Shown: piece by piece, positions 4,340-60,850 of the stretch
Position numbering within the stretch: position 1 is the first letter of the stretch
How the letters are laid out: every line of letters begins with the position of its first letter
Assembly (NCBI RefSeq): GCF_004010195.1
Contig: NC_057718.1
Span: forward strand, 69,433,098 to 69,497,097
DNA from: Chiloscyllium plagiosum
Lineage: Eukaryota
Direction of reading: 5' to 3'
Length of the DNA stretch: 64,000 nucleotides
The notes under the pieces: generated by a model
Told to the model about the DNA's origin: nothing
Databases searched by the model: none
Seen by the model: the letters and a program-made list of their open reading frames with translations, nothing else
Made by a program: the position numbers and the translations under genes

Positions 4340-5028
4340 TGTGGTGCTGTTTGTGCCCTAATGTTTAGACTGATTGTAATCTAAAAAATGAGTTAATAGA
4401 GTCTTACATAGATCCATGCAATGTTTGAGCAAAGTACAATGTAACTCTGCAAGTATAAATTCACCCCACAAACATATATGTGTATGTGTACATGTGATGT
4501 GTGTGTGTCTCTGTCTGGGATGGGGGGTTCTAAGTGTCTGTGAGAGAGAGTGCGTGTGTGTAAAGGGGTCTAAAGTCTGTGAGAGGGTGCATGTGTGAGT
4601 GTGTGTGTGTCTGGAGTGGGGGGGTTGAGAGTGTCTATGAGAGAGTGTGTATGTGTGTGTGTGGAGGAGTGTGTGTTCAACACATTATCTGTGCTGACAC
4701 CAACTGTTAAAGTTAACCTGAGAATGTAACTTTTAAAAAAGGTTTTGTGATTTACATATGAAAGAAGTGAAACTATCATGGTCATTCTAACAGATGAGAG
4801 ACGTAACAAACAATCAAGGTATTTTTCAATGTATAATTTCAATTACATCACACTGTAAACTTTTCCTATAAATTCTGTGTCTTACAATTGTATCCTCCAC
4901 AACCACCTAACGAAAGAGCGGCACTCCAAAAGTTAGTGCTTCCAATTAAACCTGTTGGACTATAACCTGGTGTTGTGTGATTTTTAATTTTGTACACTCC
5001 AGTCCAACACCGGCATCTCCAAATCATG
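4340..5028 (+). mobile_element. PLE family B 3' fragment with (TG)n-rich tract and terminal repeat
   Basis: Ends in the same repeat as 19539-19662 (cttccaattaaacctgttggactataacc...ccggcatctccaaatca); degenerate hammerhead at 4904-4938; TG/GA low complexity at 4475-4680. Confidence 0.6.
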
Positions 5029-5081
5029 ATTTAAAAAAAACATCAATTGTGCCTTTCAAATGAGGATCTCTGTGCACTTAC

Positions 5082-5111
5082 CAGGTGGCCTGACAATAAT
5101 CTGTGGGTCAT
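5082..5111 (-). CDS. FNDC1: FNDC1 30-nt micro-exon (DDPQIIVRPP-G)
   Basis: Acceptor gttttctgtttttacag|AT, donor CCT G|gtaagt, phase 1 to 1; resembles recalled human DNPLLVVRPPG. Confidence 0.9.
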
Positions 5112-5404
5112 CTGTAAAAACAGAAAACAATCATCGTTCAAATACTGGCTATATTTTGATGAAATTAATAAAATGGTTGTAAATCAGACTTAATAAGTAA
5201 CTCAATTGTTACACGAAAAATGAAGAAAAACAGAATATAAGGAAGAGGAAATGCTATATGACTGATCGACAATTTAATTTTCTGCATCACTTCCACTTTC
5301 TGATCCTGTCCTCATTTCCATTGGCCCTGTAGTGTCCAAACATTTGTTAATCTCAGTCTATTGAGAACTCATAGCCCTTTGGACTAGAACACAGATAACA
5401 TACG

Positions 5405-5840
5405 ATAAGCAGCTGAGGATCCTGGGACTGTATTCATTAGAGTTTAGAAGGTTGAGGGGAGATCTAATAGAAACTTAAAAGATAATGCATGATTTAGAAA
5501 GGGTGGACGCTGGGAAGTTATTTCCGTTCGGCAGGGAGACTAGGATCCATGGGCACAGCCTTAGAATTAGTGGGGATCAATTTAGGACAGAAATGAGGAG
5601 ACATTTCTTCAGCCAGAGAGTGGTGGGCCTGTGCAATTCATCGTCATGGAGCACAGTGGAGGCTGGGACGTTAAATGCCTTCAAGGCACAGATTGATAAA
5701 TTCTTGATCTCGCAAGGAATTAAGGGCTACGGGGAGAGTGCGGGTAAGTGGAGTTGAAATGACCATCAGCCATGATTAAATGGCGGAGTGGACTTGATGG
5801 GCTGAATGGCCTTACTTCCACTCCTTTGTCTTATGGTTTA
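5405..5840 (+). mobile_element. CR1 LINE 3' end
   Basis: ERVDAGKLFP...TRIHGHSLRI...RRHFFSQRVVGLCN, CR1 ORF2 C-terminus and 3' UTR. Confidence 0.9.
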
Positions 5841-6639
5841 ATATACCAAACTCAATCTTCTGAATGAAAGGAGTCTCCCATTTTCATTCCTAAATGACTG
5901 ACTCTTATTCTAAATCTATGATCCTTAGTTTCAGAACTTCAACTAGGGGGACAAAAAACTTCTAAAATTTACCCTGTGAAGCCCTCTAAGAATTTTACAC
6001 ATTCCAGTTAGGTCACTTCTGTTTTATTTAGGTTGCTTTGTTGAACTGATTTGTCTCAGAGCATTGCAGAGATAACTCTAGTCGTAAATCCAAAAATCTA
6101 TTTACAAACCTTTAAAGAATTCTCAGAATTTATAGAATTTCCAAAACACACATTGTCTTTGCTAGGTCTCAGATATTCTAGCTAGAAGCTTATATATGGA
6201 GTTGGTCACTTGACAAAGATCAGTTACAAGACTAGCCTGATCAAACATAGAAGAACTACCACTGAACACTCCACTCATTTCTCATGAAACTCCAGAGAAT
6301 ATAGGTCCATTCCACTCGCTCACTTCATCGGACTTAGGGACTAACCTAATACTGAAGAAGTACTCTCACTAGAGTCGTGTATAATTGTAACAAGAATTCT
6401 TCACTTCATGCATTCTTCCTACATCATTGACAGCAAATGCATTAATTGATTGTCAAATTATTTGAGAAATATGGACATGAGAAGTGCTGCATAAATGCAT
6501 CTTTTAGTATTTCTATACTCTAACTACTTTGCAATAAGGGCTAACATAGCATTTGCTTTCCTAAGTATTTGCTGTGCTTGCATGCTAACATCTACAAATT
6601 CATATACAAGGAATCTATAGCCCTTAAATGCGAATATTT

Positions 6640-7260
6640 GCTTATCATTCAACTTAAAGCTGGCACACAGGTGCAGCAGATAATCAGGAATGCTAATGGA
6701 ATGTTGATCCTTTTTTCAAGTCTATTGAGTATAAGAATAGGGAAGTCCTATTGCAATTGTATGTGATGCTGGTGAGACTACATCTGGAATACACAGAGCA
6801 GCTTTGATCACCTTATTTAAGAGAAGGATAATCCATTGAAGGCAGTTCAGAAAATGTTCACTAAAATGATCCCCAGAGGGGATTGTGTCATGAGCAAAGA
6901 TTAAACAGGTTGGGATTTGACTCACAGGAATTTAGAAGAATGAGAGGTGGTCTCATTGTAACATTTGGGTTTGACAAGGTAAGTGCTGGGAGGATATTTC
7001 CCGTCATGGGAGTGCCTAGGACTAGAGGGCATAAGAATTTTTTCTCTCAGAGGGTTGTGTCTCTTTGGAACACCTTGCCACACAAAGCTGTGGAGACAGT
7101 CTCTTGTGTATATATAAAGCTGAGGTAGATTCTTGATCAGTAGGGGAATCAATGGTTGCAGGCAAAGGATAGTAAAGTGGACATGAGGAATGTCAGATCT
7201 TATTGAATGGTGGAGCAGACTTGAGGCCTACTCCTGTTCCTATTTCTGATGGTCTTTTAG
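6640..7260 (+). mobile_element. CR1 LINE 3' fragment
   Basis: EQRLNRLG...RRMRGGLI...TRGHKNFFSQRVVSLWNTLP. Confidence 0.85.
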
Positions 7261-7545
7261 AATGGCTTGTTTTCCCACTGAAGTGAATAATTTCACATGG
7301 CACCATCAGCAATCCTAGACTTTTCTTATTAATTTCTGTTTCTTTATTTCAACCTTACCATCATGGGTTTAACAGTTTCCATTGGAAGGAAGGTTGATAA
7401 CTAAAGCTTTTCATCATAAGACAAACAAACCAAAGAGATGAAGTTTTTTTTAATCGAAGTAGATTTGATTTAGACTTTATTGTCATGTATACACAAGTAC
7501 AAAAGTCCAGGAGTACAGTGAAAACTTTTCAATGTCACCACGCAT

Positions 7546-7880
7546 AGGTCATACAGTGGCTCAATGATTAGCACTGCTGCCTCACTGCACCAGGGACCTG
7601 TGTTTGATTCTGGTCTTGGGTGTCTGGAGTTTACATGTTCTTACTGTGTCTGCACTGGTGCTTTAGTTTCCTCCCACAGTCCAAACATGTGCATATTAGG
7701 TGGATTAGCCATGCCAAATTGTCTGTAGTGACCAGGGAAGTATAGACTAAGTGGATTAGACATGGTAAGTGCAGGCTCATGGGGATAGGGTAGAGGGCTA
7801 ATTCTGTGTGGGATGCTCTTCAGGAGGTTAGTGCAGAGTTGAAGGCCTCTTTCTATAATGTGGGCATTCTATTCTATTCT
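7546..7880 (+). mobile_element. HE1-type V-SINE (decayed)
   Basis: Same head and V-domain as the other copies. Confidence 0.8.
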
Positions 7881-9489
7881 AGGTTTTTATTCATTGTTTG
7901 AAGGGTAGTGCAAGAAAATTATATGGAAATTTTCAAAAGGGAACAAGAAACAGTGCATAGTTATATGGGAAAATAAAATACAGTGCAATAGAGAAGCAAG
8001 AGAATGGGGATAATTACAAAGATTTAACAAAACCCAATAGTCCAGAAGGGCTCTTCTTTCTGTGAAATTTTTTCACCTTATGGCTGAAGTAAAGGAATAC
8101 GTTAACTTGGAATTTCTAATATTCATTATGGCATATTGGAAAATCCTCTGTATATATTAGGATACTAGATTTTCCAAATATTATGAATAGAAATTTGTGC
8201 AGATGTTGCCAAAGATTTCCTGGTGTGGAGTTTCATGATTTCACCAGGTAGGCAGGTTTGGAAGATCAGTAAGCAAACGCTTTATGAAAAATGCTGCACA
8301 GTTTGCAGTGAACCCAGAGAATTTAGCAATCTCTAATTCTTGCCTCTACCAAGTAAGGCATTGTGCTAGTTTAATTCACCTTGATATACTATGACTACTT
8401 GATATTTAAGCATTATGAATTGTCCCTTACAAAGGTCAAAATTTACTGTGCATTTTTGTATTTTATTTCTGGGATGTGGGTGACACTATATTGCTTCTGC
8501 TTTGGTGATGTAAGAACATGGAAGCCTTCTTGATTGAATGCCTATACAACTGGGTAGTCCTTTAGCCACTAGAGCACTTTGAATTTCTATTTTGCTGTTT
8601 TTGTCAGAGTCAAGGTCAGTTTTCTTGGAATGAGCCAATTCTATAAAGCAAGGCAAGGTCAAAAAGTATCTTGGTTCTGCAGACTGTGCTCACAATTTCG
8701 TGGATAGTGTGACTTTACCTTGGCTCCTGCTACAGCATTAGAAATGGTTAGACCAGTCAAGATGCAGCAAAGTTCAGCACTGGATGATAGTGAATGAGAA
8801 CATCCAATACTTAAATAGTAGCTGCAAGGGAGTGAGGAGAAATGACAAAATCAAGAAATTTTCCCCATAGCTTACTCGCACTGATCTTACTGCAAGTTTA
8901 TGATACTATGGTAAGGTACAAGAGAATTCAACCAAAGAAAGTTTGGAGCCGCTCTTAGGGATAAGTATGTAGCAGTAGATCTCCTCATCCCAACCACTTT
9001 GGTCCTCCACTCCAGGAAGTAACTTCAAGCCAAGAATACATGATGTAATGTGGGACTGGAGTCAAATTAGGTTAGACTTAGTACAATGGCAGAATCACTT
9101 CCCTCAAACACATCGGGTGAACAGTTGGATTTGGGTGAATAGTTGTATTTTTATAATAATTCAACAGCTTTCAAAGTCATGTTGTCCAGTTGTCCCTTAT
9201 CACAGATATTTTACGGAAACTCACACATTATTTTGTAACATTTGAAAATCTAACTCAAATTTTTAAAGTCAAAAAGTATCCCAGGAACAGGAGAGTCGAT
9301 GTTTCGGGCATAAGGCCTTTACCATGCCCGAGACAGCGACTCTCCTGCTCCTCGGATACTGCCTGACCTGCTGTGTTTTTCCAGCACCACCCTTTAGAAC
9401 TCTGACTCTCCAGCATCTGCATTCCTCACTTTCTCAAATTTTTAAATCCTGGGTTACAAATCTAGTATGATAATCATTTCAAAACATCA

Positions 9490-9594
<105 letters not shown>

Positions 9595-9867
9595 TTAGCA
9601 GTTAATCATTTAACTTAAGATTGGCTTACAAGATGCCAATTCCCTCCCTAACAGCATTGTAAGCTTACCTACTGCACATGGATAGCAGCAGTCAAATCAC
9701 AGACTCATTGCAACCTTCTCCCTTTTCTATCCCACTTTGAGTCATACATTCATTTCTAATCTTATTTGCACTTGTCTAATTTACACGTGCCTTGGGTAAT
9801 ATTCTATAGATTACAACAATTGATAGTCTGCTTTTTAATTTGGTACTTGGCTTCTTGTATTGGTTCA

Positions 9868-10168
9868 CAGAATCCCTATGGCCCATGGAGTCTGCGTCAA
9901 CCTCCGAAGAGCATTTCACCCAGACCCAGCCCCCCACCATATCCCGTAACCCAGCATTTGCCATGGCTAATCCACCAAGTCTACACATCTCTGAACACTA
10001 TGGACAATGTCAGCATGGTCAATCCACCTAAACTGCACATCTTTGGATTGTGCAAGCAAACCCACAGCGAGAATGTGCAGACTCCACACAGAATTCTGAG
10101 GCTGAAATCAAACCCAGATTCCCGGCACTGAGAAGCAGCAGTGCTAACCACTGAGCTACCGTGATACT
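9868..10168 (-). mobile_element. HE1-type V-SINE
   Basis: gcagcagtgctaaccactgagctaccgtg head on the minus strand. Confidence 0.8.
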
Positions 10169-12214
10169 CCATTATGTAGAATCTTACTCGTTGTCCTGCC
10201 TATGCCACCCGTACCTACATGGACCAAGATGCCCAGATTTTCCCTTCCCACAGTAAGTTCCTTATCACTGTGAGCACTGCCTAAACCCTGGCAACTCAAC
10301 ATTCTGGACTTTTGCTCTTGACTACAGCGAATAGTGCCACTCCCCCCTACTACATCATCTCATATTGCCACTACATTTTTTATGCTCCTCACACTTAAAT
10401 GGCTTCTAATAACACAGTGCCATGGTTAGCTGGTTTATTTATGTGCAGTTCTACTGTCACCAAAACAAAGTGAAAGAATCGCAAACATTTTGGACACTCA
10501 AAGGCTGAGGTTTGTGCACCTTTGCCTTCAGGACCCCCTTGCCTGCCTCAGATGCAACGCCAATCCCCTGACCACTTATCAAGTTAGAAGACCCTCTCCT
10601 AAGGGGTGCAACTGTTCCTTTGTACAAATGTCCAACTAACTTTCCCCCCTTCCTGTTGTGTTATAGGGTCTATAGCTTGACTTTCAGTTCAATGACTCTG
10701 AGCTAAAAATCCTTGAGCTGCAAACATTACTGCAGACATATTTTTCATGGACACAAAAAGCAAATTGCTGGAAAATCTCAGCAGGTCTGGCAGCCAATGT
10801 GGAGAGAAATCAGAGTTAACGTTTCAGATCAAGTGATTTCTCTCTCCAGATACTGCCAGACGCATTGAGTTTTTCCAGTTTTTGTTTCTGATTTATAGCT
10901 TCCGCAGTGTTTTGGTTTTAGTTTAAAATTTTCCATGGATCCTGGCATCCACATGTTGTTGCCATAGCTCATCACTCTTGACATCCTTAATGTGGTTTAA
11001 TTAATTGCTTAATTGTTTCACACAATTATTTATTTCATTTTTAAAATTGATTTTATCCTTACCATTAGCTCCTGTACTATTTTAAAACTTGGAAATACCA
11101 CAGACCCTAACACTTACCAAATACTCACCAAACAGGTCTTTCTTTACCTGTACCAGAGCAAGAATTAATTTCCCCAAAGGTGAAAAAGTTAGAAACAGCA
11201 AAGAAGTACCTTCTCCCTGTCTTCACCTAATCCCCTTACTTACCTATCTCCCAGGACTCCATTCAAAGTCACACTGAAAAGCTATACTTCGTTGCTTTGA
11301 GTTAGGTCAGCTCTGCATACAAAAAATAGTTTAAACTAGTTTCCTGCTCTCCAGTGGAGAGCTTGTATATACCATCTCTGCCTAAGCCTGAATGAAATTC
11401 AGAATTTAATCATTTAAAGCCACTGAACTACTGTGACAATAAAGTAAGGGATTTGGTATTGATGTGTGGGAAAGAAAGAATTCCTCCATTTTCAGTTTGT
11501 TATGCAAGAAAATGCACCACGTCTAGTTTAGTCATTCACAGAAATGGCTGCAAATAATATTCTCTTCATACTCATTTCACAGAAGACAAGAAAAGCATCT
11601 CTGAATAGACCACAAGTAGCTGCAGCCACACTCTTTAGATTGGCACTAAATTAAATATTATATCAAGCATATTCACCCTGAGTTCAAAATTTGAAATCTT
11701 CGTATGTGGCTCACTATTAGAGTATTTATTCAAGAATTGCTTGATTTGTTAAGAGCATTAAAAAAGGAAGATTACAACTTAACCATTCTGTGGAGGCAAG
11801 ACCAGTTTGTAACTGGCTACACCCCCAAACAGCAGTATAATAATCATCAGCTGGGTAAATTTTAGAAAGCTGGAACCAATCTCCTATCATCACTGTTACA
11901 GCAGATTTAAAACTGTAGGTTCCACCAATTGTGATTTTTCCATTAACAACCCTCAGTAAGTGTGTGTTCTAAAGGTTAATTTTCATTTCCTCTTGTATTT
12001 CTTGTGCATTACCAAAACTTTCAAAGGAATTACTTTTTCAAATAAGGTCAACTCTGCAGCAATAGTTTTCTAACTTTACCATCAAATTTCTTTCCAGACA
12101 GAAAATCCTTAGCACAATGTGAAGCAAATAATAAGGCATAACTGAAGTAGCATAATAATCAATGGTCTTTCAGTTTTAAAGGCAATTCTTTTTCTCAGTT
12201 TATAAATATCATAA

Positions 12215-12782
12215 TAGAGTCATACAGTCCTAAGTATGGAAATAGACCCTATGGCCCAAACTGGTCCATGCCGACCAAAATGTCCATCCACGCTAACCCC
12301 ATTTCCCTGCACTTGGCCCATATTCTTCTAAACTTTTCCTATCCATTTATTTATCCAAATGTCTTTTAAATGTTGTTAATGTACCCACCTCAACAACTTC
12401 AGCTGGCAGCTCATTCCATATGTGTGCCATCCTCTGTGTAAAAAAAAGGTTGCCCCTCAGGTTCCCTTTTATTCTTTCCCCTCTAACCTTAAACTGATGT
12501 CCTCTAGTCCTCGATTCACCAATTGTGGGAAAAAAACTTTGAGTGTATTCATCCTATCCATGCCTCTCATGATCTTACATACATCTATATGATCTCCCCT
12601 CAGTCTTCTATGGTCTAAAGAAAGATGTCCTAGTTTGTCCAACCTCTCCCGACAACTCAGATTGTTGAGTTCTGGCAACATCCTTGTAAATTTCTTTTGC
12701 ATTCTTTCCAGGTTAATAACATCTTTCCTATAGTGGGGTGACCAAAACTGAACGCAATACTCCAAAGTGTAGCCTCACCAAT
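12215..12782 (-). mobile_element. CR1 LINE 3' end
   Basis: EYCVQFWSPHYRKDVINLERMQKKFTRMLP...RRLRGD. Confidence 0.9.
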
Positions 12783-13127
12783 GATAATGTGATTAAATCT
12801 ATGGTTTTAAAACTTGAATCTTTCGAGGCAGATCCTAATTGAAATGGAAACTGACTCTTGTGGTTGCTAAAATAAACTAAGATCAAATGGAAACCAAAAC
12901 TTCTGGCTGAAACTACACAAAGGTTGACAAAGCCATTGAAGGTCATCAAATGACAGTTCCAGGTGTAGTAAAGGCACACTGAAGAAAATAGGTTTAGATT
13001 CACAAGCTGAGAATAAACAAAAAGAACATAGCTGCAGCTGTTTCAGTTATTTTAATTTAGGTGATGCACACCATCTAGATCATTGTAAGCAGAGTTTAGG
13101 CCATTCTGCAAATACATACAATTTTGG

Positions 13128-13420
13128 TGATGAAATAACTTCACAAAGCCTGGTATCCTGTCACCACGTTACTCTTTATTTACATGTGTGCAGTACTGTA
13201 CTTGACATCGGTGTGGCTTTCTTAGAGCCAATCCTCAGAGCCACTTGAAATAGTGAGAATCTCTGAGACTCCTGTTAATCTTTTTGAGATGCTGCACACT
13301 ATTATCTTATTTGCGAGGAGACTCCTGTTTATAACCATCAGCCAGAGCACCCAGGTCAATAACCTCCATCAGGGATCTCACACACAGTAAGATCCGCCTA
13401 ACCCTGGTTAGATTATGCAT
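13128..13420 (-). mobile_element. Solo LTR related to the Gypsy relic
   Basis: tgaaataacttcacaaagcctggtatcctgtcaccacgttactctttatttacatgt resembles 42426-42481. Confidence 0.6.
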
Positions 13421-15649
13421 TGCAATCGACTGAGGATCAAATTTAATTCCAGAAGGGGGACTGAAATATTTTGAGGATGACAGTGTTGTGGAGAAAATAA
13501 AGTACTAGGAGGGGAAAAAAAAAGAACAGGTGGAGCAGATGAGCGGCTGACTGGAACATTCTACTCTGTCACCATCTTGGCCAGTCCAGTTGCAACTTGC
13601 TATTGCAAGTTATCCAACAGAATATTTAACTTTTTCTTTGTTTGACTTGTATATATTTTTTAAAAAATCTTTTAAACTGTGAACCTTATAGCTTTATTCA
13701 TTCAGTAAATAAATGGGATTTTGGATTTCTTGTTTATCAAAAGAAGTTACTGGTCTCATTTGACATTATAACAATAACAGCATTCAAAACTACTTCAGAA
13801 GTTACACTGTATTATAATAGTATACTGAGCAAATTAAAATTGTCATTGACAATCACTTGCTAAGAAGTATGGTTGTCCACCTAGAAAATATTAACACATC
13901 AACACCTAGTGCTACAATACAAAATCTGAATCATAAACACTTTACTTCTGTTTCAGTAGCATCCTAAATATTTATATGTCATTAAGTTTCTGTCACAATA
14001 CTTGCTGGCAATACAGAACTTTATTCTATTCTCTAAATAGAATTTATGAATTAGAATTCTTGTGTAAGCAACCTCTTCAAGAAGCCATCTGGATCAGCCA
14101 AGAGTGTTGCTATGTGAGATGAACACGATGACAGGTCTTGGATGTTATGAGAAATGTCTATAAACTCTGTTAGTCTTGATTTATTCATAACAAATCTACT
14201 TTAGCCCGAAACCACTTGCAAACAGATTATTCAGAAAAAAAACTACATCAAGCTTCAAATTATTTTTGTTTATAATGGAGCTCAAACTTTCAATAGTGTA
14301 CCTAAACAAACATTAATTACGGTGACACAAAGGATATACTCTCTTGCCTTTGATAGTTGGTCAGAAACTGCTATTAGAATTTAACACAGCAGAACATGTT
14401 GAGCACCAAGGATCTCTAGCAGTCAGAAGTTAGTAATTCTGAGAGACCCCTTCTTGTTCAACATTGGAAAATATCCAACTGGTGCATGCATTTTTTCAAA
14501 TTCATTTGCAGGATATGGACATCGGTGACTGGCTAAACGCACTTGAGATAGTGATAGCGAGCTGTCTTCTTCAACTGTGCCTACCCATAATGCTGTTATG
14601 AAGGGAGTTCTAGGATTCTGACCCAGTGACAGTGAAAGAATGGTGATATATTTCCAAGTCAGGATGCTGAGGGGCTTGGAGGAAAACTTGCAGGTGGTGA
14701 TGCGCCCATATGTCCTTTTAGACTGATGTGGCCATGGCTTTGGCAGGTGCTGTTGAATGATCTTTGGCAAATTTCTGCAGTGCTTCTTATAGATTGCACA
14801 TACTGCTGGAACTGAGCATCAGTAGTGGAGGGAGTCGTTGTTTGTGGATGTAGTGTCCATCAAGTGGCCTGCTTTGTCCTGGATAGTGTCAAAATTCTTG
14901 TGTGTTTTTGCAACTGAACTCATCCACGGAAGTGGGAAGTATTCCCTCCTGACTTCTGCCTTGTAGATGGTGGTCTGGGGGTGAGTTATTCACTGAGTAT
15001 TTCTAGTCCATGACCGGCTGTTGTAGCCAATGTTTTAACATGGTCAGTCCAGTTGAGTTTCATGTCAATGGTAAGTCCCAGGATGTTGATATGGGGATTC
15101 ACTGATGGTAACCCCCATTGAATGTCAAAGGGCAGTGCTTTGATAATCTCTTATTGGAGTTGGTCACTAATCCATTGAGTTGGTTAACTGTCCACCAACA
15201 TTCATGACTGGTAATGGCAGGACTGCAGAGCTTAGACCTGATCTGTTGGTTGTGGGAACCTTTAGCTCTGTCAGTCATTTATTTCTTATCCTGTTTGGCA
15301 AGCAAGTTGTCCGATTTGGTAGCTTCACCAGATTAACACCTCAGTTTAGGTGTATCTGCTGCTGTTCCTACCATGCGCTCCCACACTCACCATTGAACCA
15401 TGGTTGATCCCCTGGCTTGAAGGTAATGGTTGAGTGGGAGGTGTGCTGGATCAAGAGGTGGCCAATTGTGTTGGAGAATGATTGTGCTGGAGAATGATTG
15501 TGCCATAGTTAACGGCCCAAAACACTTCATGCATACTCAATTGTGAGTTGCTAGATGTGTTCGAGGTCAGTCCCATTTACCACAACAATTGTGCCACACA
15601 ACATGATTGAGGGTAAAGGGAAAGGTAAAGGTGAGGTAAAGTCTCCATA

Positions 15650-15975
15650 TTAAGTGGTTAGCACTGTTGCCTCACAGCGCCAGGGAACCGGGTTTGATTC
15701 CAGCCTGGGCAACTGTCTGTGTGGAGTTTGCATATCCTCCTTATGATTGCGTGGGTTTCCTCCGGGTGCTCCAGTTTCCTCCCACAGTCCAAAGACATGC
15801 AGATTAGGTGAATTGGCCATGTTAAATTGCCCACAGTGTTCAGGGATACGCAGGTTAGTCAGGGGAAAATGTAGAGTAATAGGGGTAGGGGAATAAGTCT
15901 GGGTGGGATATTTTTCGGAGGGTCGATGTGGACTTGTTGGGCCAAATGGCCTGTTTCCACACTGCATGGATGCTA
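15650..15975 (+). mobile_element. HE1-type V-SINE
   Basis: agtggttagcactgttgcctcacagcgccaggga head, V-domain, tail ggacttgttgggccaaatggcctgtttcc. Confidence 0.9.
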
Positions 15976-16318
15976 TGATAATTCTGTAGGGATTCCAGTC
16001 TTATCAGACCATAGTCTTCTTTCTCATATGTGAGAGACATGACTGATGGTGGTCTAACCTAAGTATCACCATTCCTCAGGCGAGAGGAGAGGTTGGGGGT
16101 GGGGGTGAGGTGGAGAATCTTCATAGAAACCTCTGCCAGTCTGAAATTGAATCCATGTTACTGACATCACTCGGTGTCACTCACCAGCCATCTAGCCAAC
16201 TGAGCTAACTGACCCCCTTGATGATGGAGGGTATTCTCAATGTGAAGGTGGGAATTCATCTCCACAAAGTTAAAAATCACACAACACCAGATTATAGTCC
16301 GACAGATATATTTGGAAG

Positions 16319-19780: not shown

Positions 19781-19960
<180 letters not shown>

Positions 19961-47160: not shown

Positions 47161-47184
47161 GGTGAAAGATTCATGTTCTGTGTA

Positions 47185-49040: not shown

Positions 49041-49132
49041 TTGTTTCTATACCTCATAGACATTTATAAGAGAGTGTACAGAACATTAAACAATGCAGAG
49101 CAGAAAGAGAAGCAACCACAACCAGACAGTAC

Positions 49133-49213
49133 CTTCTTTAATGTCTAAAGAATCCAATGAATCGCCTTCTGCGGGAATGGTTAGCAGATCCCAGTCCATT
49201 CCAGAAGCCTCTT
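49133..49213 (-). CDS. FNDC1: FNDC1 exon (EEASGMDWDLLTIPAEGDSLDSLDIKE)
   Basis: Acceptor ttttcaatag|AA, donor GAA G|gtactg, 81 nt, phase 1 to 1; resembles recalled human EDEFSGLETD. Confidence 0.75.
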
Positions 49214-50934: not shown

Positions 50935-51930
50935 TTAGAGTGAGGGACGAATCAGGAGAGCACGACAGGAATGAAGGGAGCAACAGACCAGGGCAGCATG
51001 ACACAGATGGAGGGAGCAATGGACTGGGAGAGCACAACAAAGGATGGAGGGAGCTAAGGACTGGGAGACCACGGCAGATTGCAAGGAAGCGATGACCTGG
51101 TAGGAAGTGATGGACTGGGAGGGTTTGGCGGAGCAGCAGGATAGGGAGAGGAGAGAGAGAGAGGGAGGGAAGAATTGGAGATAGAGAGAGAAGGATTGTG
51201 AGTGAGAGAGAGAGAAGATAAAAATAAAAGAGGATGAAAGAGGAAAATGTACGGTAGCGAGGGACTGAGAGATTGGAAGACTGAGAGCATGTAGGGGAAT
51301 TGGGGGGTTGGGTATGATCAAAAGAGTAAGACTTGAGGTTGAGAAATGGAGACGATATAAGCAGAGAAAGGTAATAAAGAGAGGAAATAGAAGTTTGGAT
51401 AAAAGATACAGGAAAATAGACTGTGCTGTAGTGAGAGAAATGCAGAGAGAGAGAATGAAATCCTCAGAAGAGACAGACAGAGAGACAGAGAGAGAGAGGG
51501 AAGAGAGAACACAAGCAAGCCTTTGTGGGTTGTGTTGATGGGAGAGGAGGAAAACATAGAATTAGAAACATAGAAAATAGGTGCAGGAGTAGGTCATTTG
51601 GCCCTTTGAGCCTGAACCACAAAACAGAGAAATAGGAAGAGATGGATTGAGGGAGTGGTGGAGAGCCAGAGAGAATGGTGATTATGAGTAGAGACAGAAA
51701 CCAGTGGTTGATGGAGAAATAGACTTACTAGGTGAAGGGGCAAAAGTAGATACAGTGGGTGTGGGTAGGAGAGAGAAGAGGATGCCTGTGGGTGGAAGAG
51801 ACAGATTGTGAGAGGAAAGGGGAGTTGGGAGGGTGTGGAGAATGGGTGGGAGGATTCATCAGGAGAGTTGGGGTGGTCAATAGGAAAGTGAAGAGAGGGA
51901 TTTGTAGAGATGTCTAGTGAGTGTCAAAGG
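50935..51930. repeat. ~1 kb purine-rich (GA) low-complexity tract
   Basis: Strong A/G bias on +, with (GA)n runs near 51146, 51204 and 51470-51510. Confidence 0.85.
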
Positions 51931-53156
51931 GCTAAAGGGGACTTCTGGGTTTTATTCCCAGCTGTTGGTTCAGTGATTCTAGGATTCTAGGAGTTGTCTT
52001 TACCAAAATGGCAGATTTTGCATTTCCATTGCAGAATATGCACTGACACACCAGTCTTTGGATTGCAATATTAGCCGTTTGTTTTAGGATTCTGAATGAG
52101 GTGAGACATAATAGAATTTCTATGGGTTTCTCACATCCCCACATCTAGTTAATGCTCCAAGACAGTTGAAGCAAGGGCCAGGATTGTGACTCTTCAACAT
52201 TTCAGAATCCAGCACAAACAAAGGGCTCGGATAGGGCAGGGCTGAAGACAGCATGAATGGGAAGAGAGCACCTGTGCACTTTTAATGGTGGAGTAAGGGC
52301 AAGAAAAATTAGGGTGGGAGAAACAGAAAAAGTGAGGCTCAACAGGCAGCAGCCATTTTAGGTAACTAATTGAGACAAAGGCACCTTGGATGCAAGAGGC
52401 TTTCTCTGTTCCACATAAAACTGTGACAACCATTTCTGCTTTGGTTGGGGCAGGGTACAGGATGATTGCAGCAATGATTAAATTTATGAGTGTCCCCAAA
52501 CCAGCACCTCACTGGAATCCTACTAGTGAAGGACAATCCAAATCCTGTTGGATAACTTTGCTGTTGCTGTTGATCACAGAGTTTTTAGGTCTTTTCATTT
52601 GTAACAGTCAACCTGACTGTTCGGTTGGTTCAATTCAGAATTTTAGTATTCTCATTAATCTCTGTATTACCCTTAAGTTAAAATTTGGTTTGCATCCAGA
52701 AGAACAAAACAAATTAGCTCTTTCTAAGCTTCACCTGAAATACAGTGATATCCTGGTTGAAGACAACATAGTTATGTCTTTGATCACCGATTCCAAAGTC
52801 AAGTTAAAGTACCAACATTTAATAACCAACAGTTTGTAGAGTGCAATTGACGGCTAAAATGGTGCCCTACCCCTGACTGTCACCATATTATTAAAATCCA
52901 TATCACAGCAGTGAGCTGGGCATGATATAATCTGCCCCATACCTTCTTGTGTGATCTTTGCAGTTAAGTACTGACTCCAACGCGGCATACAGGATTTGTG
53001 AATTCTACACAATACTAAATCATGGGCACATATGTACATTGTCAGGACAAATCAGAGACAAATATCATAAAGTTTACTTAAATAACAATTTGTCAAATGC
53101 TCTTAATTTGGAAAATTGTATTTATAATGGTTAACGAAATGCCTAGTGGTTCTTAC

Positions 53157-53558
53157 CTGTAGTCAAACTGTCAACAGTATCAGCAGAACCTAGAACAGGG
53201 TAACCAGCTTCGTTCAATCTTAGATAACTGGCTGTGGGATATGTAGGAATTACAGTAGTAGGTTTAGTTGTTAGTTCTGTTGTAGTTGGCTTTGGTGTAG
53301 TAGTTGGCTCCGGTGTGGTAGTTGGCTCCGGTGTGGTAGTTGGCTCCGGTGTGGTAGTTGTGGTTGTTGCAGCCGTGGTTTTAATTGTTGTGGTTGTAGG
53401 CGCAACTGTCGTTTTAAAGTGATGGATCAATCCAATGACGGGCTTTCCCCCGACTGACAAAACTGGCTTGCCTTTTGGGTCAACTAAAGGCTTACTGTCT
53501 CGTCCATGTCCAAACAAAGGTAAACCATCAGGACTCAGAATTGGAGTTCCTTTTTTAT
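53157..53558 (-). CDS. FNDC1: FNDC1 exon with Thr/Pro-rich mucin-like stretch
   Basis: Acceptor tttaaag|AT, donor ACA G|gtaaga, 402 nt, phase 1 to 1; DKKGTPILSPDGLPLFGHGR...GGKPVIGL...TTTPEPTTT. Confidence 0.93.
53280..53365 (-). repeat. Coding 18-bp tandem repeat (PEPTTT x3 plus PKPTTT)
   Basis: Unit gtagttggctccggtgtg repeated on the + strand. Confidence 0.9.
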
Positions 53559-55039
53559 CTTTAAAATTGGACAGAAAAATGTTAGTCAGTTTAGAGCAAA
53601 GTCTTAAAATCCTTTTTTCTCATTTTTCCTCGAGTAGCTCCTGCACAGGTTGATTGAAAATATCTACCAAAATACTGAAGGACTTTTCTGCTATGGTGAC
53701 AGTGTTTCGACCTCTGAGCCAGGAGACCTGGGCTCAAGTCACACCTGCTCCCAAGTGTCATCACATGTCTGCACAGGTTGATGAAACTAACTATCCAAAC
53801 ATTGAATGGGGGCTCTTTTGTGCAGTGGTAGTTTTCCTACCAAGAGCTAAGAGGGCAGGATTCATGACCCACCTGCTCCAGAGGTACGTAATAACATTTC
53901 TGAAAGGTCAATTAATAATATCTACTCAAGTACTGGATAAGGCTGTTGTGCAGTGGTAGTATCCACTACCCTGAGCCAGGAGGCTCAGATTTAAATCCTA
54001 TCTTGCGATTGTGTTGTAACATATCTGACCAGGTTGATTAAAAAAGATCTACCCAACTACTGATCTGCTCTTGAAGTCACAATATTTATATGACTGATCC
54101 AGTTAAATTTCTGTTCAATTCTTACCCCTAGGATGTTGATTATGGATTATGGCACTGCTAGACTTCATGTGAGAGATGGTTAGATTTTCATAAATTGGAG
54201 ATAACTTTTACCTAGCATTTGTATGAGTTTCTTTTGAGTGTTACTTGCTACTATCGTTCCAATCCTGAACATTATTCAGGATTTGCTGCATGAAGACAGA
54301 GGGTGCTTCATCATCTGAAGATTTGCAAATGATACTGAACAATAGCTAATCATCAGTGTATGTCCTTACTTCTCACCTTACTTTGGAACAAATGTTATTG
54401 ATGAAGCAGTTAAGTTTAGGACATTAATGTGAGGCACTCCTGCAGAGATGACCTTGGCCTGAGATGGTTTACTTCCAATAACTACAACCAATTACTTTTG
54501 TGCTAGGTATGATTCCATCCAATGGAGATTCTCTACCCATTCCCCCACCTGAATCAATTCCCATTGATTGAATTTTATTAGGGTTTCTTGATGCCACACT
54601 CAGTCAAATGTTATCTTGAAGTCCAAGATAATCATTCTCACCTCAACTGTGGAATTCAGTTTTTTTAATCATGTTGACCAAGACACTATTAAGGAAGTGA
54701 GGACTGCAGATGCTGGAGACCAGAGTTTTGGGCATTCCTGAAGAAGGGCTTATGCCCGAAATGTTGATTCCCCTGCTTCTCGGATGCTGCCTGACCTACT
54801 GCGCTTTTACAGCACCACACTTTTCAACTCAAGACACTATTGAGGCATGGAGTAAGTCTATGATATTGGCAAAACCAAATTCAGCAACAGCAAGCAGATT
54901 AGTTTGAGCTAGCGTTAATTGGTAATGTTTGATGACACCTTCCATCACACTGACTGATAATGGTCTGATGATGCAGTAATTGGTGGATGGATTGGCTATG
55001 CTTTCAGCAGACAGGACATACTAAAAGACGGCTAAACAC

Positions 55040-56595
55040 CAAGGGCCTGTCTGCACTGAAATTTAAGAAAATGAAATGGGTCTTATTTGAAACATAGAAG
55101 ATCCTGAGGGAGTGCTGAATGTTTTCCCTTGTAAGGTTGACTGGAATTAGGAGCAGAACAAAAATTAAGCATCTCCCAATTAAAATTGAGGTGTGGAGAA
55201 ATGTTTCTCTGGGGCTGTTAGTCTGTGGATTTTGTTCTGCAGAGATCAGTAGAAGCTGCATCTTTGAATATGTTCAGAGTTGAGTTGATACAATTTTGTT
55301 GAAGAAAGGAATCAAAGGTTACGTGAGGCAGTCAGGAAAGAGAACTCAGTTATAATCTTATTAAATGGTGGAATAGGCTTGAGAAGCTAAATGGCTAACT
55401 CTGACTTCACCTATTAACTTGCTATTGTCTATATCAATGATCTTTTCAGCCACGCAATCATCTGCCTTTTTCAGCGTTTCCTTGCATATAGTACTAAGAG
55501 TAATCCAGAGATTACTACATTGAAGGTTACTAGTTTTCTACTAAGCACCTAATTCTGATTACAGCATTACATCCCCTTCTTCCTGAAATCATTGATATCA
55601 CAACCTCAGGCCGTTCAACCCCTCCCAACTGAATGTCCTGCAGCTGTCCTGAGATATTCTGGACCCTGGCACCAGAGACACAACATTCCATCCAGGAGCT
55701 ACCTTGACAGTCGCAGAAATGCCTGATTGTTCCCCAAACTAGTAAATCCCCTATCACTTTTTCCTCACTCCTGTACAGCTGACCTACTTGTGATGCCACA
55801 AATCTGGCCCCGAGTGCACTCACCTGAAGAATCTGTGCTCTCATCAATTTCCAGAATGGAAAACTGATTTGTCAACTGGATTGAACTGACTGGCAGTCAC
55901 TGATTCCATTCCTCCCTCCAGGCTCTTAAACTGCACTGCAACCACTCTTGGCATCCATGTAACTCTCAGCCATGCAGATGTGCCACAAACCACTAGACAT
56001 CATTCAAGCTCTAAAACTTGGAGCTCAAGTTTCTGCAGTGCAATGCATTTCCTGCACATACAGTCATTGGTGACTCTGGTACGACCCCCGACTTCCTACA
56101 TATTACAGGCCACACATTCCACTCGAATGGCTTGTGCTGTCATATCTTAAATCTTTCTTAGTCTGAAACTTACTTCCATTCTGCTAACTTTACTCTACTT
56201 CCCTTACACTACTTTGCTTACTTACATTTCAAATCCAGTGCCGAATCTGATGCAGAATAGTTTTCCAATTTCTTGTACAGGTTTGGTACAATGGAATGGC
56301 TTGATCGATCATTTCAGAGGGTAGTTAAGAGCTAACCACATTGCTGTAGATCAAGAGGCACATATAGACTAGCTGATTTAGAACACAGAACATAGAACAG
56401 TACAGCAAAGAACAGGCCCTTCAGCCCACGATGTTGTGCCGACCATTGATCCTCATGTAAGGTAAACCTAATGTATGAACCCTCAAATTTTTGTGACCAT
56501 ATGCATGTCCAGCCGTCTCTTAAATATCCCCAATGACCTTGCTTCCACAACTGTTGCTGGCAATGCATTCCATGCTCTCTCAACTCTCTGCGAAG
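55040..56595. mobile_element. CR1 fragments incl. ORF1 esterase remnant (55510-56150, minus)
   Basis: VIGDLLVWGTIRHFCDCQGSSWMECCVSGARVQNIS resembles the CR1 ORF1 SGNH esterase; 3' UTR pieces at 55040-55400 (+) and 56380-56595 (-). Confidence 0.7.
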
Positions 56596-57039
56596 GTTAT
56601 TTCCCCAAAGGTTGTTAATGAAGCAGATTTTTAATGAAGCAGGTTTTTAATGTGAAATCAGTAACTTTATGGTTGCCATCATTGAAACTAGATTTTATTC
56701 TTAATTTTATTTAATTAATTCAATTAATCAATTCAACTTAAATTTCCCTAGCTGCTGTAGCAGGATTTAAATTTATGTCTCAGAAGGATTAATCGTAGTC
56801 TCTGGCTTATGAGTCACATTCCCAATGCTAAGTATCATATTGTAACCAGAACAGTGTATAATAAACAATTGACAATATAGAAATATCAAATACTTTAACT
56901 GCACAGGAAAATTCATAGGCAACCATTTTGTTTTGAGTGTCATGTAAAGAAATCTATTCAGTATCCAATGTTGATAAAGTAGTACTTTTCTTTATGCAAC
57001 CAAATGTATCTTAAAAGATTTGACTAGAATCGTACAAAC

Positions 57040-57151
57040 CTAGTATTGTATGTCCATCTGCTCCCAGTTGTATTGGGAGGGGTTTTCCATCTGTATCCTG
57101 GAGGATTTGTCCTTCAGGGTTCATCAATACTCCTCGATCAAAATCTACAAT
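57040..57151 (-). CDS. FNDC1: FNDC1 exon (IVDFDRGVLMNPEGQILQDTDGKPLPIQLGADGHTIL)
   Basis: Acceptor ttcaaaaag|ATT, donor CTA G|gtttgt, 112 nt, phase 0 to 1; preceded by a 137-nt intron. Confidence 0.92.
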
Positions 57152-57288
57152 CTTTTTGAAGATAGAAGCTCGTAAGTCACAGAAGCAACCCTCATCCAAT
57201 GAGCAGATTAAAATGCTTTTTAAAAGTGATTTGATTTTGACATTGCATTTGATATTTTCATAATCCAGTTGTACAAGGAATACTTTAC

Positions 57289-57398
57289 CCATTTAGTGTC
57301 TTGAGGTCCAGTGATGACCCTACGCCCAGTTGCCTTGTCATTACTATCTCTGCTGGGAGAAACCTTGCTCCCTGTTAAATTTGGTCTCCCAGACTTCC
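57289..57398 (-). CDS. FNDC1: FNDC1 exon (KSGRPNLTGSKV...GRRVITGPQDTKW)
   Basis: Acceptor ttgcag|GG, donor TGG|gtaaag, 110 nt, phase 1 to 0. Confidence 0.92.
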
Positions 57399-57969
57399 CT
57401 GCAATTTGATACAATATTTCAATCTGTAAATGAGTGATATCCATTTAAAATCTGTATTTAGACCTTGTTTAAAGTTTCTTAATAGTTAATTGAATTATTT
57501 TTAATCTTATATAAAATGTAAAATACATCTTGTTTATTTAACTGAACCTAATTTTACATGTTTTGAGAATATAGCAGATAGTGTTTGAAAATGTCCACCA
57601 TTCCCAGCTTTACTTGAATTGTGGTGACAATTCAGTTTCTGAGGTAATTCTGCACATAAAAATAGAAACATAGGAAGAGTATTGGGCCTTTCAGTTCTTT
57701 GAAAAAAACAATTGGGTCATGATTGATCTGTAGCATTACTCCATCTACAATATTTAGTTCTCTAACCCTCAATTTATTTGCCCAAGAAAACATCATCAAT
57801 CTTAGTTTTGAAACCCACAACTCGACTGTTTTGGACGAAGACTACCTTTAGCATGAAAATCTATCAGATATTACCCCTGATCAACCAAACTCTATAGAAG
57901 ATAAAATAATTCTCCAATTTTTCCATCTCCTTTGTATCTGTTCTGATGAAGTCACTTTTCAAATGGGGT

Positions 57970-60850
57970 CCTCGAAAACGCCTACCTTTCTCCACAATTG
58001 AGGATTTCCCACCACTGTGGTTTAGAGCGGCCTCAGATACATCCGACCCATTTCCTGCATTTCTAACCTCACCCCCTCTCTTCCCTCCCACAACACCGAA
58101 AGGTTCCCCTATTTCTCACTTTCAACCCCACTAGCATCCACATCCAAAGGATCATAAACCACTATTTTACCCACCTCAAGCAGGATCCTGGACAAATACC
58201 CTCCTCTCTTCCATTGTCAGCACTTTGCAGGGACCATTCTCTCTGGAAAATTCAGGTCCACTCCTCCTTCACTCTCAATCACTCTCCATATCCCCACTGC
58301 AATTCCCAGTTGCAGAAGATGCAACGATTGCCTGTTTACCTCCTCCCAGCTCACTATCCAAAGTTCCAGACCCACCTGCCAGGTGAAGTGATTTACCTGC
58401 ACTTCATTTAATCTAGGCAAAAGTGAGGACTGCAGATGCTGGACATTAAAGTCAAGAGAGTAGTACTGGAAAAGTACAGTAGGCCAGGCAGCATCCGAGG
58501 AGCAGGAAACGTTTCGGGCAAAAGCCTTTAATCAGGAATGAGGCTGAGACCCTAGGGGATGGAGAGATAAATGGGACGGGGGTGGGGCTGGGGGGAGGGA
58601 GCTGAGGGTGCAATAGGTGGATGGAGGGGGCAGTAAACGTGGAGCTGGTAAGGGAGTCGCGGAGGGAATGGTCTTTGTGGAAAGCAGATAGGGGTGGGGA
58701 AGGAAATATATCTCTGGTGGTAGGGTCCGTTTGTAGGTGGTGAAAATGGCGGAGGATGATGTGATGTGGTGGGGTGGAAGGTGAGGACCAGGGAGTTCTG
58801 TTCTTGTTACGGTTGGAGGGGTGGGGTTCGAGGGTAGAGGTGTGGGAAGTGGCTGAGATGCGTTGGAGGGCATCATCAACCATGTGGGAAAGGGAAATTG
58901 CAGTCTTTAAAGAAGAAGGCCATCCGGTGTGTTCTGTCATGGAACTGATCCTCCCCCTGGGAACATGCTGGGGCCCATGCGGGTGCCATGGCTACCACTT
59001 TCGTCTGGAGGAAGTGGGAGGATTTGAAGGAGAAATTGTTGAGAGTGAGGGCCAGTTCAGCCAAACGAATAAGAGTGTAGTGGAAAGGTACTGGTGGGGA
59101 CATCCGGAGAAGAAGAAACAGAGGGCTGGGAGGCCCTGGTCAAGGCGGATGCAGCAGAGACAAAGGAATTGGGAATAAGGGATAGCATTTTTGCATAGGA
59201 CAGGGTGGGAGGAGGTGTAATCCAGGTAGCTGTGGGAGTCGGCGGGTTTGTGGAAAATGTTACTGTTGAGTCATTCTCCGTCCATGGAGATGGAGAGGTC
59301 CAGGAAGGGGAGGGAGGTGTCGGAGATGGTCCAAATGAACTTAAGGTTGGGGTAGAATATGTTGGTGAAGTCGATGAACTGTTCAACTTGCTCATGGGAG
59401 CAAGAGGTGGCTCCGATGCAGTTATCAATGTACCAGAGGAAAAGATGGGGAGTGGTGCTGGTATAACTGTGGAAGATGGACTGTTCCACATCACCAACAA
59501 AATGACAGGCATTGCTGAGGCCCATGCGGATGCCATGGCTACCACTTTTGTCTGGAGGAAGTGGGAGGATTTGAAGGAGAAATTGTTGAGAGTGAGGGCC
59601 AGTTCAGCCAAACGAATAAAAGTGTAGTGGAAGGATACTGGTGGGGACATCCAGAGAAGAAGAAACAGAGGGCTGGGAGGCCCTGGTCAAGGCGGATGGA
59701 GGTGTAGAGGGACTGGATATCCATGGTGAAGATGAGGCGATGGAGGCCAGGGAAACAGAAGTCTTGGAGGAGGTGGAGGGTGTGGGTGGTGTCCTGAATG
59801 TACGTGGGGAATTCCTGGATTGGGGGCGGGGATAGGACAGTATTGAGGTCAGTGGAGATGAATTTGATGGGGCAGGAGCAGGCTGAGACGATAGGCGAGC
59901 CGGGGTAGTCAGGCTTGTGGGTCTTGGCTAGGAGGTAGAACCAAGCGGTGCGGGGTTCCCGAAATATGAGGTTGGAAGCTGTGGGTGGGAGATCCCCTGA
60001 GGTAATGAGGTTGTATGTGGTCTGGGAGATGATGGTTTGGTGATAGGAGGTGAGGTCGTGGTTGAGGGGGTGGTAGGAGGAGGTGTCTTCAATTTGGTGC
60101 AAGACTTCAGCAGTGTAAAGGCCAGTACGCCAAACTACCACTGCACCCCCTTTGTCCGTTCACTTAATCTAGTCTATTGTATTCACTGCTTACAATATGC
60201 TCTCCTCCACATATGGGAGTCGAAAAAACTACTAGGTGACCGCTTTGTGGAGAAGCCTATATTATCTGTAATTGACAAAATAGAAATAGCAAGATCATGT
60301 GAGATACAAAGATTAAGGTGACAGCCATGTGTAAAGGTTAGGGAATTTAACAAAGGAAACAATGAATTCAGGGAGAGAGATAATATGTTATGTCCACAAA
60401 GACAATCCCAAGCTTCCAGTTGCCTGCTACTTCAAACCACCATGTTTCCTGGCCAATATTACTGTCTTGAATCTGTTGTAATGCCCCAACGAGGCTCAGC
60501 ACAAGGTGGAGGTACAGCATCTCATTTTCCACTTGGGGTGCCTGAAACTTTAACTTTCAATAATTTTAGAATCTGACCACTTTTTCTATGTCTTTTACCC
60601 AGCCCACACCCTCTCACGACATGTGTTGCTTTCAGCATGACCAATCTGTTTTCACTTCGTGATTAGCTTCTCTTTCCCGGGCATACTAACATCCATTCCT
60701 TTGTCTGCCTAACTGTTATTGTGTCTCCCTGGACTTCATTACTACCTATCCACTCACTCCTTTCTCTTCTCTTCCTTTAACTCTGCTTTCAGTCCACAAA
60801 TGCTGCCAGGCCTGAGCTTCTCCAGCAATTAACTTTTGTTCCTGTTTTTA
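57970..60850 (+). mobile_element. Older plus-strand PLE (host of the nested insertion)
   Basis: Linker ends ...FTCTSFNL at 58416 and resumes SLNLVYCIHCLQYALLHIWESKKLLGDRFVE (GIY-YIG) after 60159. Confidence 0.7.
58417..60158 (-). mobile_element. Penelope-like element RT region (family A), nested in an older PLE
   Basis: Frameshifted RT motifs YLLAKTHKPDYPGSPIVSACSCP, FTMDIQSLYTSI, AMG, WYIDNCIG, LPFLDLSI; terminal repeat at 58419-58540; near-perfect TSD ttca(t/c)ttaatctag at 58403-58416 and 60159-60172. Confidence 0.9.

What the first reader, a model, noticed from the sequence alone, without database searches (positions are those of the whole stretch)
4904..58540. Three families of hammerhead-ribozyme-bearing Penelope terminal repeats scattered through FNDC1 introns
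Seen: more than a dozen motifs of the form CTGANGA-N-[stem-loop]-GAAA-[short palindrome]-NUH. Family A is CTGA(T/A)GAAGGGC-NNNN-GCCCGAAACGTC, family B is CACCTGATGAAGGAGC-NNN-CTCCGAAAGCTAGTG, and a third is GCACTGAGGATGTCACC...GAAATGTCTGC. The core is constant while stem II sequence differs yet still pairs, and family A loops vary (ttat, tttt, tcat, tatt). Family A and the third family adjoin PLE RT/GIY-YIG remnants. Known: minimal type I hammerheads with palindromic stem III occur in PLE pseudo-LTRs and are thought to cleave as dimers. Inference: this shark genome carries a very high-copy, multi-family ribozyme-retroelement system; whether these families are already described cannot be determined here.
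Basis: partly seen in the sequence, partly recalled or inferred. Interest (0 to 1): 0.75.

Follow-up and report, generated by a model that had tools for sequence, protein, structure and literature searches.

The report
Hammerhead stubs of shark Penelope retroelements
These motifs are the already described minimal hammerhead (predicted self-cutting RNA) at the ends of at least four very abundant Penelope-like jumping-gene families in a shark-type genome, and most short copies begin just before the motif, about 30 bases after a TATA-like box and often with one extra G, so they likely record the capped start of the element's RNA rather than a cut.

Summary
Observation confirmed; known kind. The window holds 17 recognisable minimal hammerheads in FNDC1 introns (11 with all core bases), from four families, not three. 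Exact patterns match 63,857 (A), 12,186 (B), 14,011 (C) and 883 (D) times genome-wide; reversed controls give 0. A, B and D are pseudo-LTRs of Neptune-type Penelope-like elements (PLEs); C looks Poseidon-type. Stems covary across families, and D has fixed the published U3-A8 core swap, so master elements were likely selected for the fold. Cleavage is untested.

An extra G precedes 18 of 26 and 16 of 21 such junctions (controls 3 of 16, 1 of 4). Likely reading: reverse transcription starts at the internal tail and runs off an uncut, capped RNA end. Against: one A subfamily shows no G excess (4 of 15), D little, and C has no pile-up. No FNDC1-specific role is seen. This scan already reported the same readings on other DNA.

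The parts
3621..3780 (-). Family D fold-back stub; hammerhead 3690-3720 with U3-A8 core; inverted partial partner 3721-3780
3123..3281 (-). Older A-related (F) pLTR copy, 10 of 11 core bases
4672..5028 (+). Family B copy with about 235 nt of 3' UTR, decayed core (9 of 11) and long tail; an inverted piece of B 3' UTR lies upstream
9275..9434 (.). Family A fold-back pair, both arms truncated inside the hammerhead
16264..16466 (.). Family B fold-back pair; intact core on minus strand (16322-16350)
18683..19233 (-). Family C (Poseidon-type) 3' end: endonuclease remnant 18853-19233, decayed TATA-like word, hammerhead 18725-18758, short tail
19534..19663 (+). Family B stub starting exactly 8 nt before the core, G at 19533; hammerhead 19542-19570; long tail
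25257..25386 (-). Older family A stub, core intact, stem II damaged
29545..30189 (+). Family A insertion: inverted RT piece 29571-29858 (minus strand), endonuclease 3' end and UTR, consensus-like hammerhead 30098-30125, short tail
33385..34244 (+). Family A (TTTT loop) copy with RT remnant across an assembly gap; hammerhead 34121-34148
34478..34686 (.). Family A head-to-head fold-back pair
36120..36218 (+). Family A stub with a 15-nt target-site duplication; hammerhead 36126-36153
37339..38344 (.). Older family A insertion: inverted RT/EN remnant 37407-37932 and pLTR with hammerhead 38251-38278 (plus strand)
39771..39978 (.). Family A fold-back pair, arms starting 4 and 3 nt before the core
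54691..54830 (+). Family A stub preceded by an inverted tail; hammerhead 54738-54765
58428..60168 (-). Decayed Neptune-type PLE: RT remnant 58638-60168 and pLTR with a 10 of 11 core
1..64000 (-). Host context only: FNDC1, nine exon matches between 9493 and 63968; the gene runs beyond both window ends

Best explanation
The motifs are minimal hammerheads in the pseudo-LTRs of three Neptune-type and one Poseidon-like Penelope-like retrotransposon families, and most short copies are likely reverse-transcription run-off products of an uncut, capped element RNA that likely starts at the first bases of the ribozyme. Shown: layout (TATA-like word, start of stem I, hammerhead, two tail ends about 35 nt apart, then the likely ORF start), 12-17 bp target-site duplications, a pile-up of 5' ends just before the core, and an extra G in two families. 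Inferred: the element's protein nicks the target and primes at the internal tail, as shown for anole Poseidon. Priming on the tail near the RNA's 5' end would give 95-130 nt stubs; priming on the 3' pLTR would give long, variably truncated copies; a second cDNA or a template jump would give the fold-back and partial-tandem forms. The ribozyme is predicted to cut only as a dimer through its ACGU or AGCU palindrome, or with protein help. It was likely kept by selection in master elements, while genomic stubs decay and are likely inert.
For: PLE identity: the L137 frame has DKG, RT, a CxxxxCxxC linker and GIY-YIG directly upstream of a family A hammerhead; B and D have Neptune-type endonuclease remnants upstream, B with a clear CX4CxxC linker; C lacks the linker. 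Covariation; U3 in 96 and A8 in 100 of the first 100 of 883 D matches. 5' ends: 201 unique A-type copies picked by the part 3' of the cut site, 177 uncensored: 45 at -5..-1 (9 per nt) versus 0.06-0.18 per nt further upstream and 3 at +27..+29. Young copies at least 90% alike to a reference: 35 of 58 at -7..+6. Family B: 16 of 50 uncensored at -10..-1. Independent reads and contigs show loose ends at 30094, i.e. -4. TATA-like word 30-33 nt before the pile in most A and B references. Extra G 18 of 26 (p 4e-6) and 16 of 21 (p 2e-6) against a background of about 0.25; controls 3 of 16 and 1 of 4. G lies outside the target duplication in L241 and L260. Untemplated G marks capped L1/SVA RNA (PMC4859970, passages). 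Internal priming, an uncut template and a protein-assisted ribozyme in anole Poseidon (PMC11167929, parts 1-2 of 4).
Against: The TTTT-loop A subfamily shows no G excess (4 of 15) and D shows little (by eye). Family C has a clear TATA box at -53 but no pile-up near the predicted start (1 of 25 uncensored at -21). Several direct junctions share ATT with the target and have no G (L232, L233, L252, L259), as microhomology alone would give. The pile is ragged (-10..+9). TATA-like words sit 35 and 41 nt before the pile in two old A references, and one B reference has none. Short hammerhead segments are no more stable than shuffles (z -1.4 to +0.6), and the modelled hammerhead dimer is 5-15 kcal/mol above the best two-strand fold. 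No transcript start or cleavage product was observed.
Confidence: 0.7

Rival explanations
1. The 5' pile-up comes from a reverse-transcriptase stop, endonuclease cutting of the element's own ATT, or microhomology-guided joining, not from the RNA's capped start.
For: Anole Poseidon endonuclease prefers ATT (PMC11167929) and family A has ATT at -4. ATT microhomology with the target is seen. Many junctions are fold-backs with shared TTC or CCTT. No G excess in one subfamily.
Against: Family B piles up at a different word, partly lacking ATT on either strand. TATA spacing fits a start in both families. G lies outside the duplication in two direct insertions. A structure-caused stop would be expected at the 3' side of the ribozyme (inference).
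Confidence: 0.2
2. The stubs are a separate non-autonomous element (ribozyme SINE or retrozyme) that copies itself using PLE protein.
For: Stubs outnumber long copies (99 of 177 start at -10..+9) and carry their own target duplications. PLE-derived retrozymes are described, including in one cartilaginous fish (bioRxiv 2026.07.22.740005, parts 1-2 of 5).
Against: Stubs lack the upstream TATA-like box, share loop and tail variants with long copies of the same subfamily, have ragged ends, and are dispersed or fold-back rather than arrayed head to tail.
Confidence: 0.08
3. The motif is kept as a promoter or protein-binding element and no longer cuts.
For: It coincides with the likely start site; copies do not begin at the cut site; published in vitro activity of such motifs is low (PMC4209133); Naiads spread without canonical hammerheads (PMC8557442, passages).
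Against: Paired changes in stems I and II and the U3-A8 swap keep RNA pairing, not DNA sequence. The anole Poseidon motif cuts with protein help (PMC11167929).
Confidence: 0.15
4. The intronic hammerheads were co-opted to regulate FNDC1 pre-mRNA.
For: Five of 11 intact-core window copies are sense to FNDC1.
Against: No strand bias (9 sense, 14 antisense in the mapped gene span). Density is ordinary (5 in 64 kb versus 61 per Mb). Copies carry decay changes.
Confidence: 0.02

Closest known systems
Minimal hammerheads (min-HHR) of metazoan PLE pseudo-LTRs (Cervera and De la Pena 2014, PMC4209133; parts 1-2 of 4 read, supplements not seen)
   Same: Type I, no real helix III, palindromic 15.2-16.2, extra base after A9, G10.1-C11.1, many families per genome, mostly single truncated copies, opposite-strand pairs, and a U3-A8 variant (there in Schistosoma).
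   Different: No shark is named in the parts read. Copy number here (90,937 exact matches over four patterns; about 61 per Mb by descriptor) far exceeds the 4,000 (coelacanth) and 9,000 (Xenopus) reported with a different descriptor. Stem I is only 2-4 bp.
Poseidon from Anolis carolinensis (Frangieh et al. 2024, PMC11167929; parts 1-2 of 4 and a term search)
   Same: Two internal priming sites 30-40 nt apart giving the tail; uncut RNA as template; hammerhead about 100 nt upstream of the priming site.
   Different: There the ORF starts in stem II; in family A the likely start codon lies after the tail, about 165 nt past the core. No start site or cap run-off is described in the parts read or found by the term search.
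Neptune and Penelope/Poseidon clades of endonuclease-positive PLEs (PMC8557442, passages)
   Same: RT plus C-terminal GIY-YIG, zinc-finger-like linker in Neptune, 5' truncation, inverted 5' copies, tail.
   Different: A fixed 5' pile-up at the ribozyme is not mentioned in the passages read. In Drosophila Penelope the start lies 46 bp before an intron (PMC2377424, passages) whose end maps to helix I (PMC4209133).
Non-LTR retrozymes (bioRxiv 10.64898/2026.07.22.740005; parts 1-2 of 5)
   Same: Hammerhead-bearing, PLE-related, non-coding repeats in vertebrates, including one chondrichthyan.
   Different: Defined by head-to-tail arrays with a ribozyme in each unit; the copies here are dispersed stubs or fold-backs.

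Membership tests
Minimal PLE hammerhead | Core C3UGANG8A9 ... GAAA ... UH with an extra base after A9 | tested here: met
   18 of 18 correctly anchored representatives (F1 was mis-anchored and is dropped); the two D rows have U3-A8; some old copies carry decay at 15.2-16.2
Minimal PLE hammerhead | Palindromic helix III remnant and G10.1-C11.1 | tested here: met
   ACGU in A, C, D and AGCU in B; first stem II pair G-C, or G-U in decayed copies
Minimal PLE hammerhead | Covarying stems I and II | tested here: met
   Stem II pair 2 G-C to A-U (A_gagc, F2); C1 versus C2 pair 3 C-G to U-A; stem I differs in all four families yet pairs 2-4 bp. Related sequences; no phylogenetic correction was made.
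Minimal PLE hammerhead | Located in the pLTR of a PLE | tested here: met
Minimal PLE hammerhead | Self-cleavage as dimer or with protein | not testable with these tools
   Needs an assay; the one informative RNA run is a polyA single-cell library
Neptune-clade PLE (families A, B, D) | DKG, RT, zinc-finger-like linker, C-terminal GIY-YIG with CCHH | tested here: met
   A: L137 frame, RVT_1 E 6e-8 and GIY-YIG E 3.5e-4, slightly under Pfam's cut-off. B and D: only linker and endonuclease remnants were examined.
Neptune-clade PLE (families A, B, D) | Phylogenetic placement against named Repbase/Dfam elements | not testable with these tools
   No named PLE library is on hand; relatives are unnamed
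Penelope/Poseidon-clade PLE (family C) | GIY-YIG without the zinc-finger linker | tested here: inconclusive
   The linker is absent in the stretch before the endonuclease, but no intact RT was examined and Pfam gave no hit on the decayed window copy
Endonuclease-positive PLE insertion | 5' truncation, inverted 5' copy, 30-40 nt tail | tested here: met
   Two 3' ends about 33-36 nt apart in A, B and C; frequent fold-backs; duplications of 11-17 bp in 19 of 30 and 17 of 30 family A loci, counted by eye
Non-LTR retrozyme | Head-to-tail arrays with a hammerhead in each unit | tested here: not met
   No arrays in the window; only occasional two-unit partial tandems in loci; no genome-wide array search was made
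Rfam hammerhead families | Covariance-model match | tested here: not met
   13 matches at E<=1, none a hammerhead

The most novel reading that the evidence does not exclude
In shark Neptune elements the hammerhead fills the first 30-odd nucleotides of the capped mRNA, so cutting would remove the cap and act as a self-decapping switch between translation and copying or decay; the hundreds of thousands of stubs are a genome-scale footprint of capped, uncut templates and map the promoter and priming sites to the base.
Probability: 0.4. Interest if true: 0.6.

Novelty: new member of a known kind. Interest (0 to 1): 0.33.

Why it matters
The role of hammerheads in Penelope-like elements is open. 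If the reading holds, these genomes give base-level coordinates for start site, ribozyme and priming sites in young vertebrate families, and show that the templates which made the stubs were uncut, extending the in vitro anole result to insertions made in vivo. The ribozyme class, the U3-A8 variant and PLE abundance in a shark (whale shark preprint 10.1101/443036, passages) are already in print.

Tried and rejected
Rfam scan: no hammerhead, only hairpin look-alikes on fold-backs. DNA search of the genome with a family A copy returned nothing because common words are skipped; patterns were used instead. Start codon inside the hammerhead, as in anole Poseidon: the loop often reads ATG, TTG or GTG, but that frame stops after about 26 codons in the subfamily translated; the likely ORF start lies after the tail (by eye against P0012; tblastn gave no significant match). 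5' ends at the cut site: not found (3 of 177). Missing-reference artefact for the pile-up: tested on young copies at least 90% alike, and it persists (35 of 58). Sequencing runs: no RNA holder listed; raw polyA single-cell reads lie on both strands (1,581 of 12,955,460 in X20, 0 in X21) with no common start or end, which is no test of cleavage. No full-length, gap-free master element with both pLTRs was found among 20 loci with long frames; 17 of them hold assembly gaps. Folding energies do not single out the motif. Two further CTGANGA...GAAA words (49681-49705 minus, 57943-57977 plus) matched no family and were left out. Lunse et al. (PMC5785218) is not held; I saw it only as cited in PMC6765202, so shark motifs may be in its tables. 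Supplements of PMC4209133 and the 2026 preprint were not seen. Literature searches; no listing, and no passage I read, describes a cap run-off pile-up for PLEs.
Full report
Observation. A pattern scan finds the three motif families at the stated places. Aligning the window to 12 natural reference copies gives 31 pieces; 11 keep all 11 scored core bases, 4 keep 10 and 2 keep 9. A strict descriptor (core, stem II of at least 4 bp, stem I of at least 2 bp) hits 59 times in 972 kb of non-N sequence from 97 stretches (the window, 200 kb of flanks and 76 ten-kb pieces at round coordinates, so not a random draw), 5 of them in the window, against 0 in five shuffles and 0 reversed. That is 61 per Mb (Poisson 46-78), or roughly 200,000 genome-wide by extrapolation. 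Exact patterns give 63,857 (A), 12,186 (B), 14,011 (C) and 883 (D), each with 0 for the reversed control. The host gene is FNDC1 on the minus strand, closest to shark orthologues, and spans the whole window.

What the motifs belong to. Locus L137 holds an 893-residue frame (its N-terminus a repeated, probably mis-assembled stretch) with DKG, RT, a CxxxxCxxC linker and GIY-YIG, followed by a family A hammerhead. This is the Neptune layout described in PMC8557442 (passages). B and D have Neptune-type endonuclease remnants upstream, with a clear CX4CxxC linker in B; C has an endonuclease without the linker, as in Penelope/Poseidon. In the window, RT or endonuclease remnants adjoin the A copies at 30098, 34121, 38251 and about 58535, and the C copy. 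Copies stop at one of two 3' points about 35 nt apart, the tail that anole Poseidon makes by internal priming (PMC11167929). Target duplications of 11-17 bp flank 19 of 30 and 17 of 30 family A loci (counted by eye). Beyond the long tail the family A sequence continues into a frame beginning MPSLKK about 165 nt after the core, resembling the start of an unnamed relative (by eye, not significant by tblastn), so ribozyme and tail likely lie in the 5' UTR.

Is the ribozyme under selection? In 18 correctly anchored representatives the core is kept while stem II (4-7 bp) and stem I (2-4 bp) change sequence and still pair, including double changes within the A/F and C groups; helix III is reduced to ACGU or AGCU. 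Flanks fall to about 40-55% alignment identity between families. This points to selection on the fold in master elements; the sequences are related and I made no phylogenetic correction. Against activity of single copies: the segments are no more stable than shuffles, the modelled dimer is above the best two-strand fold, and most window copies carry decay in stems or palindrome.

Where copies begin. Copies were picked by the part 3' of the cut site, so the ribozyme did not bias the pick. Of 201 unique A-type copies, 24 were dropped as censored by gaps, locus ends or reference ends. Of 177, 45 begin at -5..-1 from the first core base, 15 at -10..-6 and 39 at 0..+9, against 27 over the 390 positions further upstream and 3 at +27..+29. 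Among 58 young copies, 35 begin at -7..+6. For B, 16 of 50 uncensored begin at -10..-1 (one duplicate row). For C there is no pile (25 uncensored of 34). Raw RNA reads and assembled contigs independently show loose ends at window 30094, which is -4 (96 reads, 121 contigs); these reflect genomic junctions, not RNA starts.

Why there. A TATA-like word lies 30-33 nt before the pile in most references: TATAAAT or CATAAAT in 8 of 9 B references, a weaker YTTATC in A (lead taken from e1-8021936). The base before the junction is G in 18 of 26 (A, GAAG type) and 16 of 21 (B) junctions not explained by an adjoining element piece, against a background near 0.25; controls one or two bases in give 3 of 16 and 1 of 4. 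By eye, the first 100 genome matches give 54 G for A, about 63 for B and 11 for the control, these including junctions where the G could be templated by an inverted partner. In L241 and L260 the G lies between the target duplication and the element; in L235 and L245 it is shared with the target. An untemplated G is the accepted mark of a copied cap in L1 and SVA (PMC4859970). Against: the TTTT-loop subfamily gives 4 of 15, D shows little, C has a TATA box but no pile, and four direct junctions join by ATT microhomology with no G.

Mechanism. Shown: anatomy, counts, end positions, G excess in two families. Inferred: transcription starts at the foot of stem I; the protein primes at the tail; priming on the 5' tail runs off the cap and gives stubs; priming on the 3' pLTR gives long copies; second-strand events give fold-backs and the partial tandems seen. 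Since copies do not begin at the cut site, the templates were likely uncut, as in vitro for anole Poseidon. Cutting, if it happens, would remove the capped first 32 nt or release a unit-length RNA from a transcript with two ribozymes (the latter proposed in PMC4209133); neither is tested. There is no sign of an FNDC1-specific role (9 sense, 14 antisense in the mapped gene span).

Novelty. The ribozyme class, its U3-A8 variant, the inverted and tailed insertions and PLE expansion in whale shark introns are published. My nine literature searches showed no shark family description and no cap run-off reading, but Repbase/Dfam, Lunse et al. and supplements could not be seen. Verdict: real, a new member of a known kind, with a testable mechanistic clue; interest 0.33.

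Noticed in passing
window, e.g. 7553-7830, 20057-20360, 23695-24012, 32968-33322: An abundant repeat of about 300 nt with a tRNA-like head, more than ten copies on both strands; probably the shark HE1 SINE (name recalled, not tested).
   Followed up: no
window 47444-47923 (-), 12469-12774 (-), 30588-30977 (-): Decayed LINE reverse-transcriptase remnants; Pfam RVT_1 on the first; CR1-like by recall.
   Followed up: partly
window 3123-3281, 10752-10893, 17896-17984, 60777-60830, 62636-62680: Older A-related (F) pLTR copies sharing the tail core with A and D, showing a long series of Neptune subfamilies.
   Followed up: partly
L329, L331, L339, L342: Partial tandems in which an upstream copy runs about 100-160 nt past the tail into the ORF start and then joins a downstream copy starting near -4 (at about -33 in L339), suggesting a template jump after run-off.
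   Followed up: partly
listing: About 14 of 100 junctions read G-T or G-A-T before TTCC, as if the first RNA base were miscopied or slipped next to the extra G (by eye).
   Followed up: no
window 49681-49705 (-) and 57943-57977 (+): Hammerhead-like words with no relative in the window; the second lies within a very old PLE-like protein remnant.
   Followed up: no
window 33568-34083: A 516-base assembly gap inside a family A insertion; most long PLE loci fetched have such gaps.
   Followed up: no
L194, L080, L226, L219: Further Poseidon-like families (C2, C3) with longer stem II and their own covarying stem I.
   Followed up: partly
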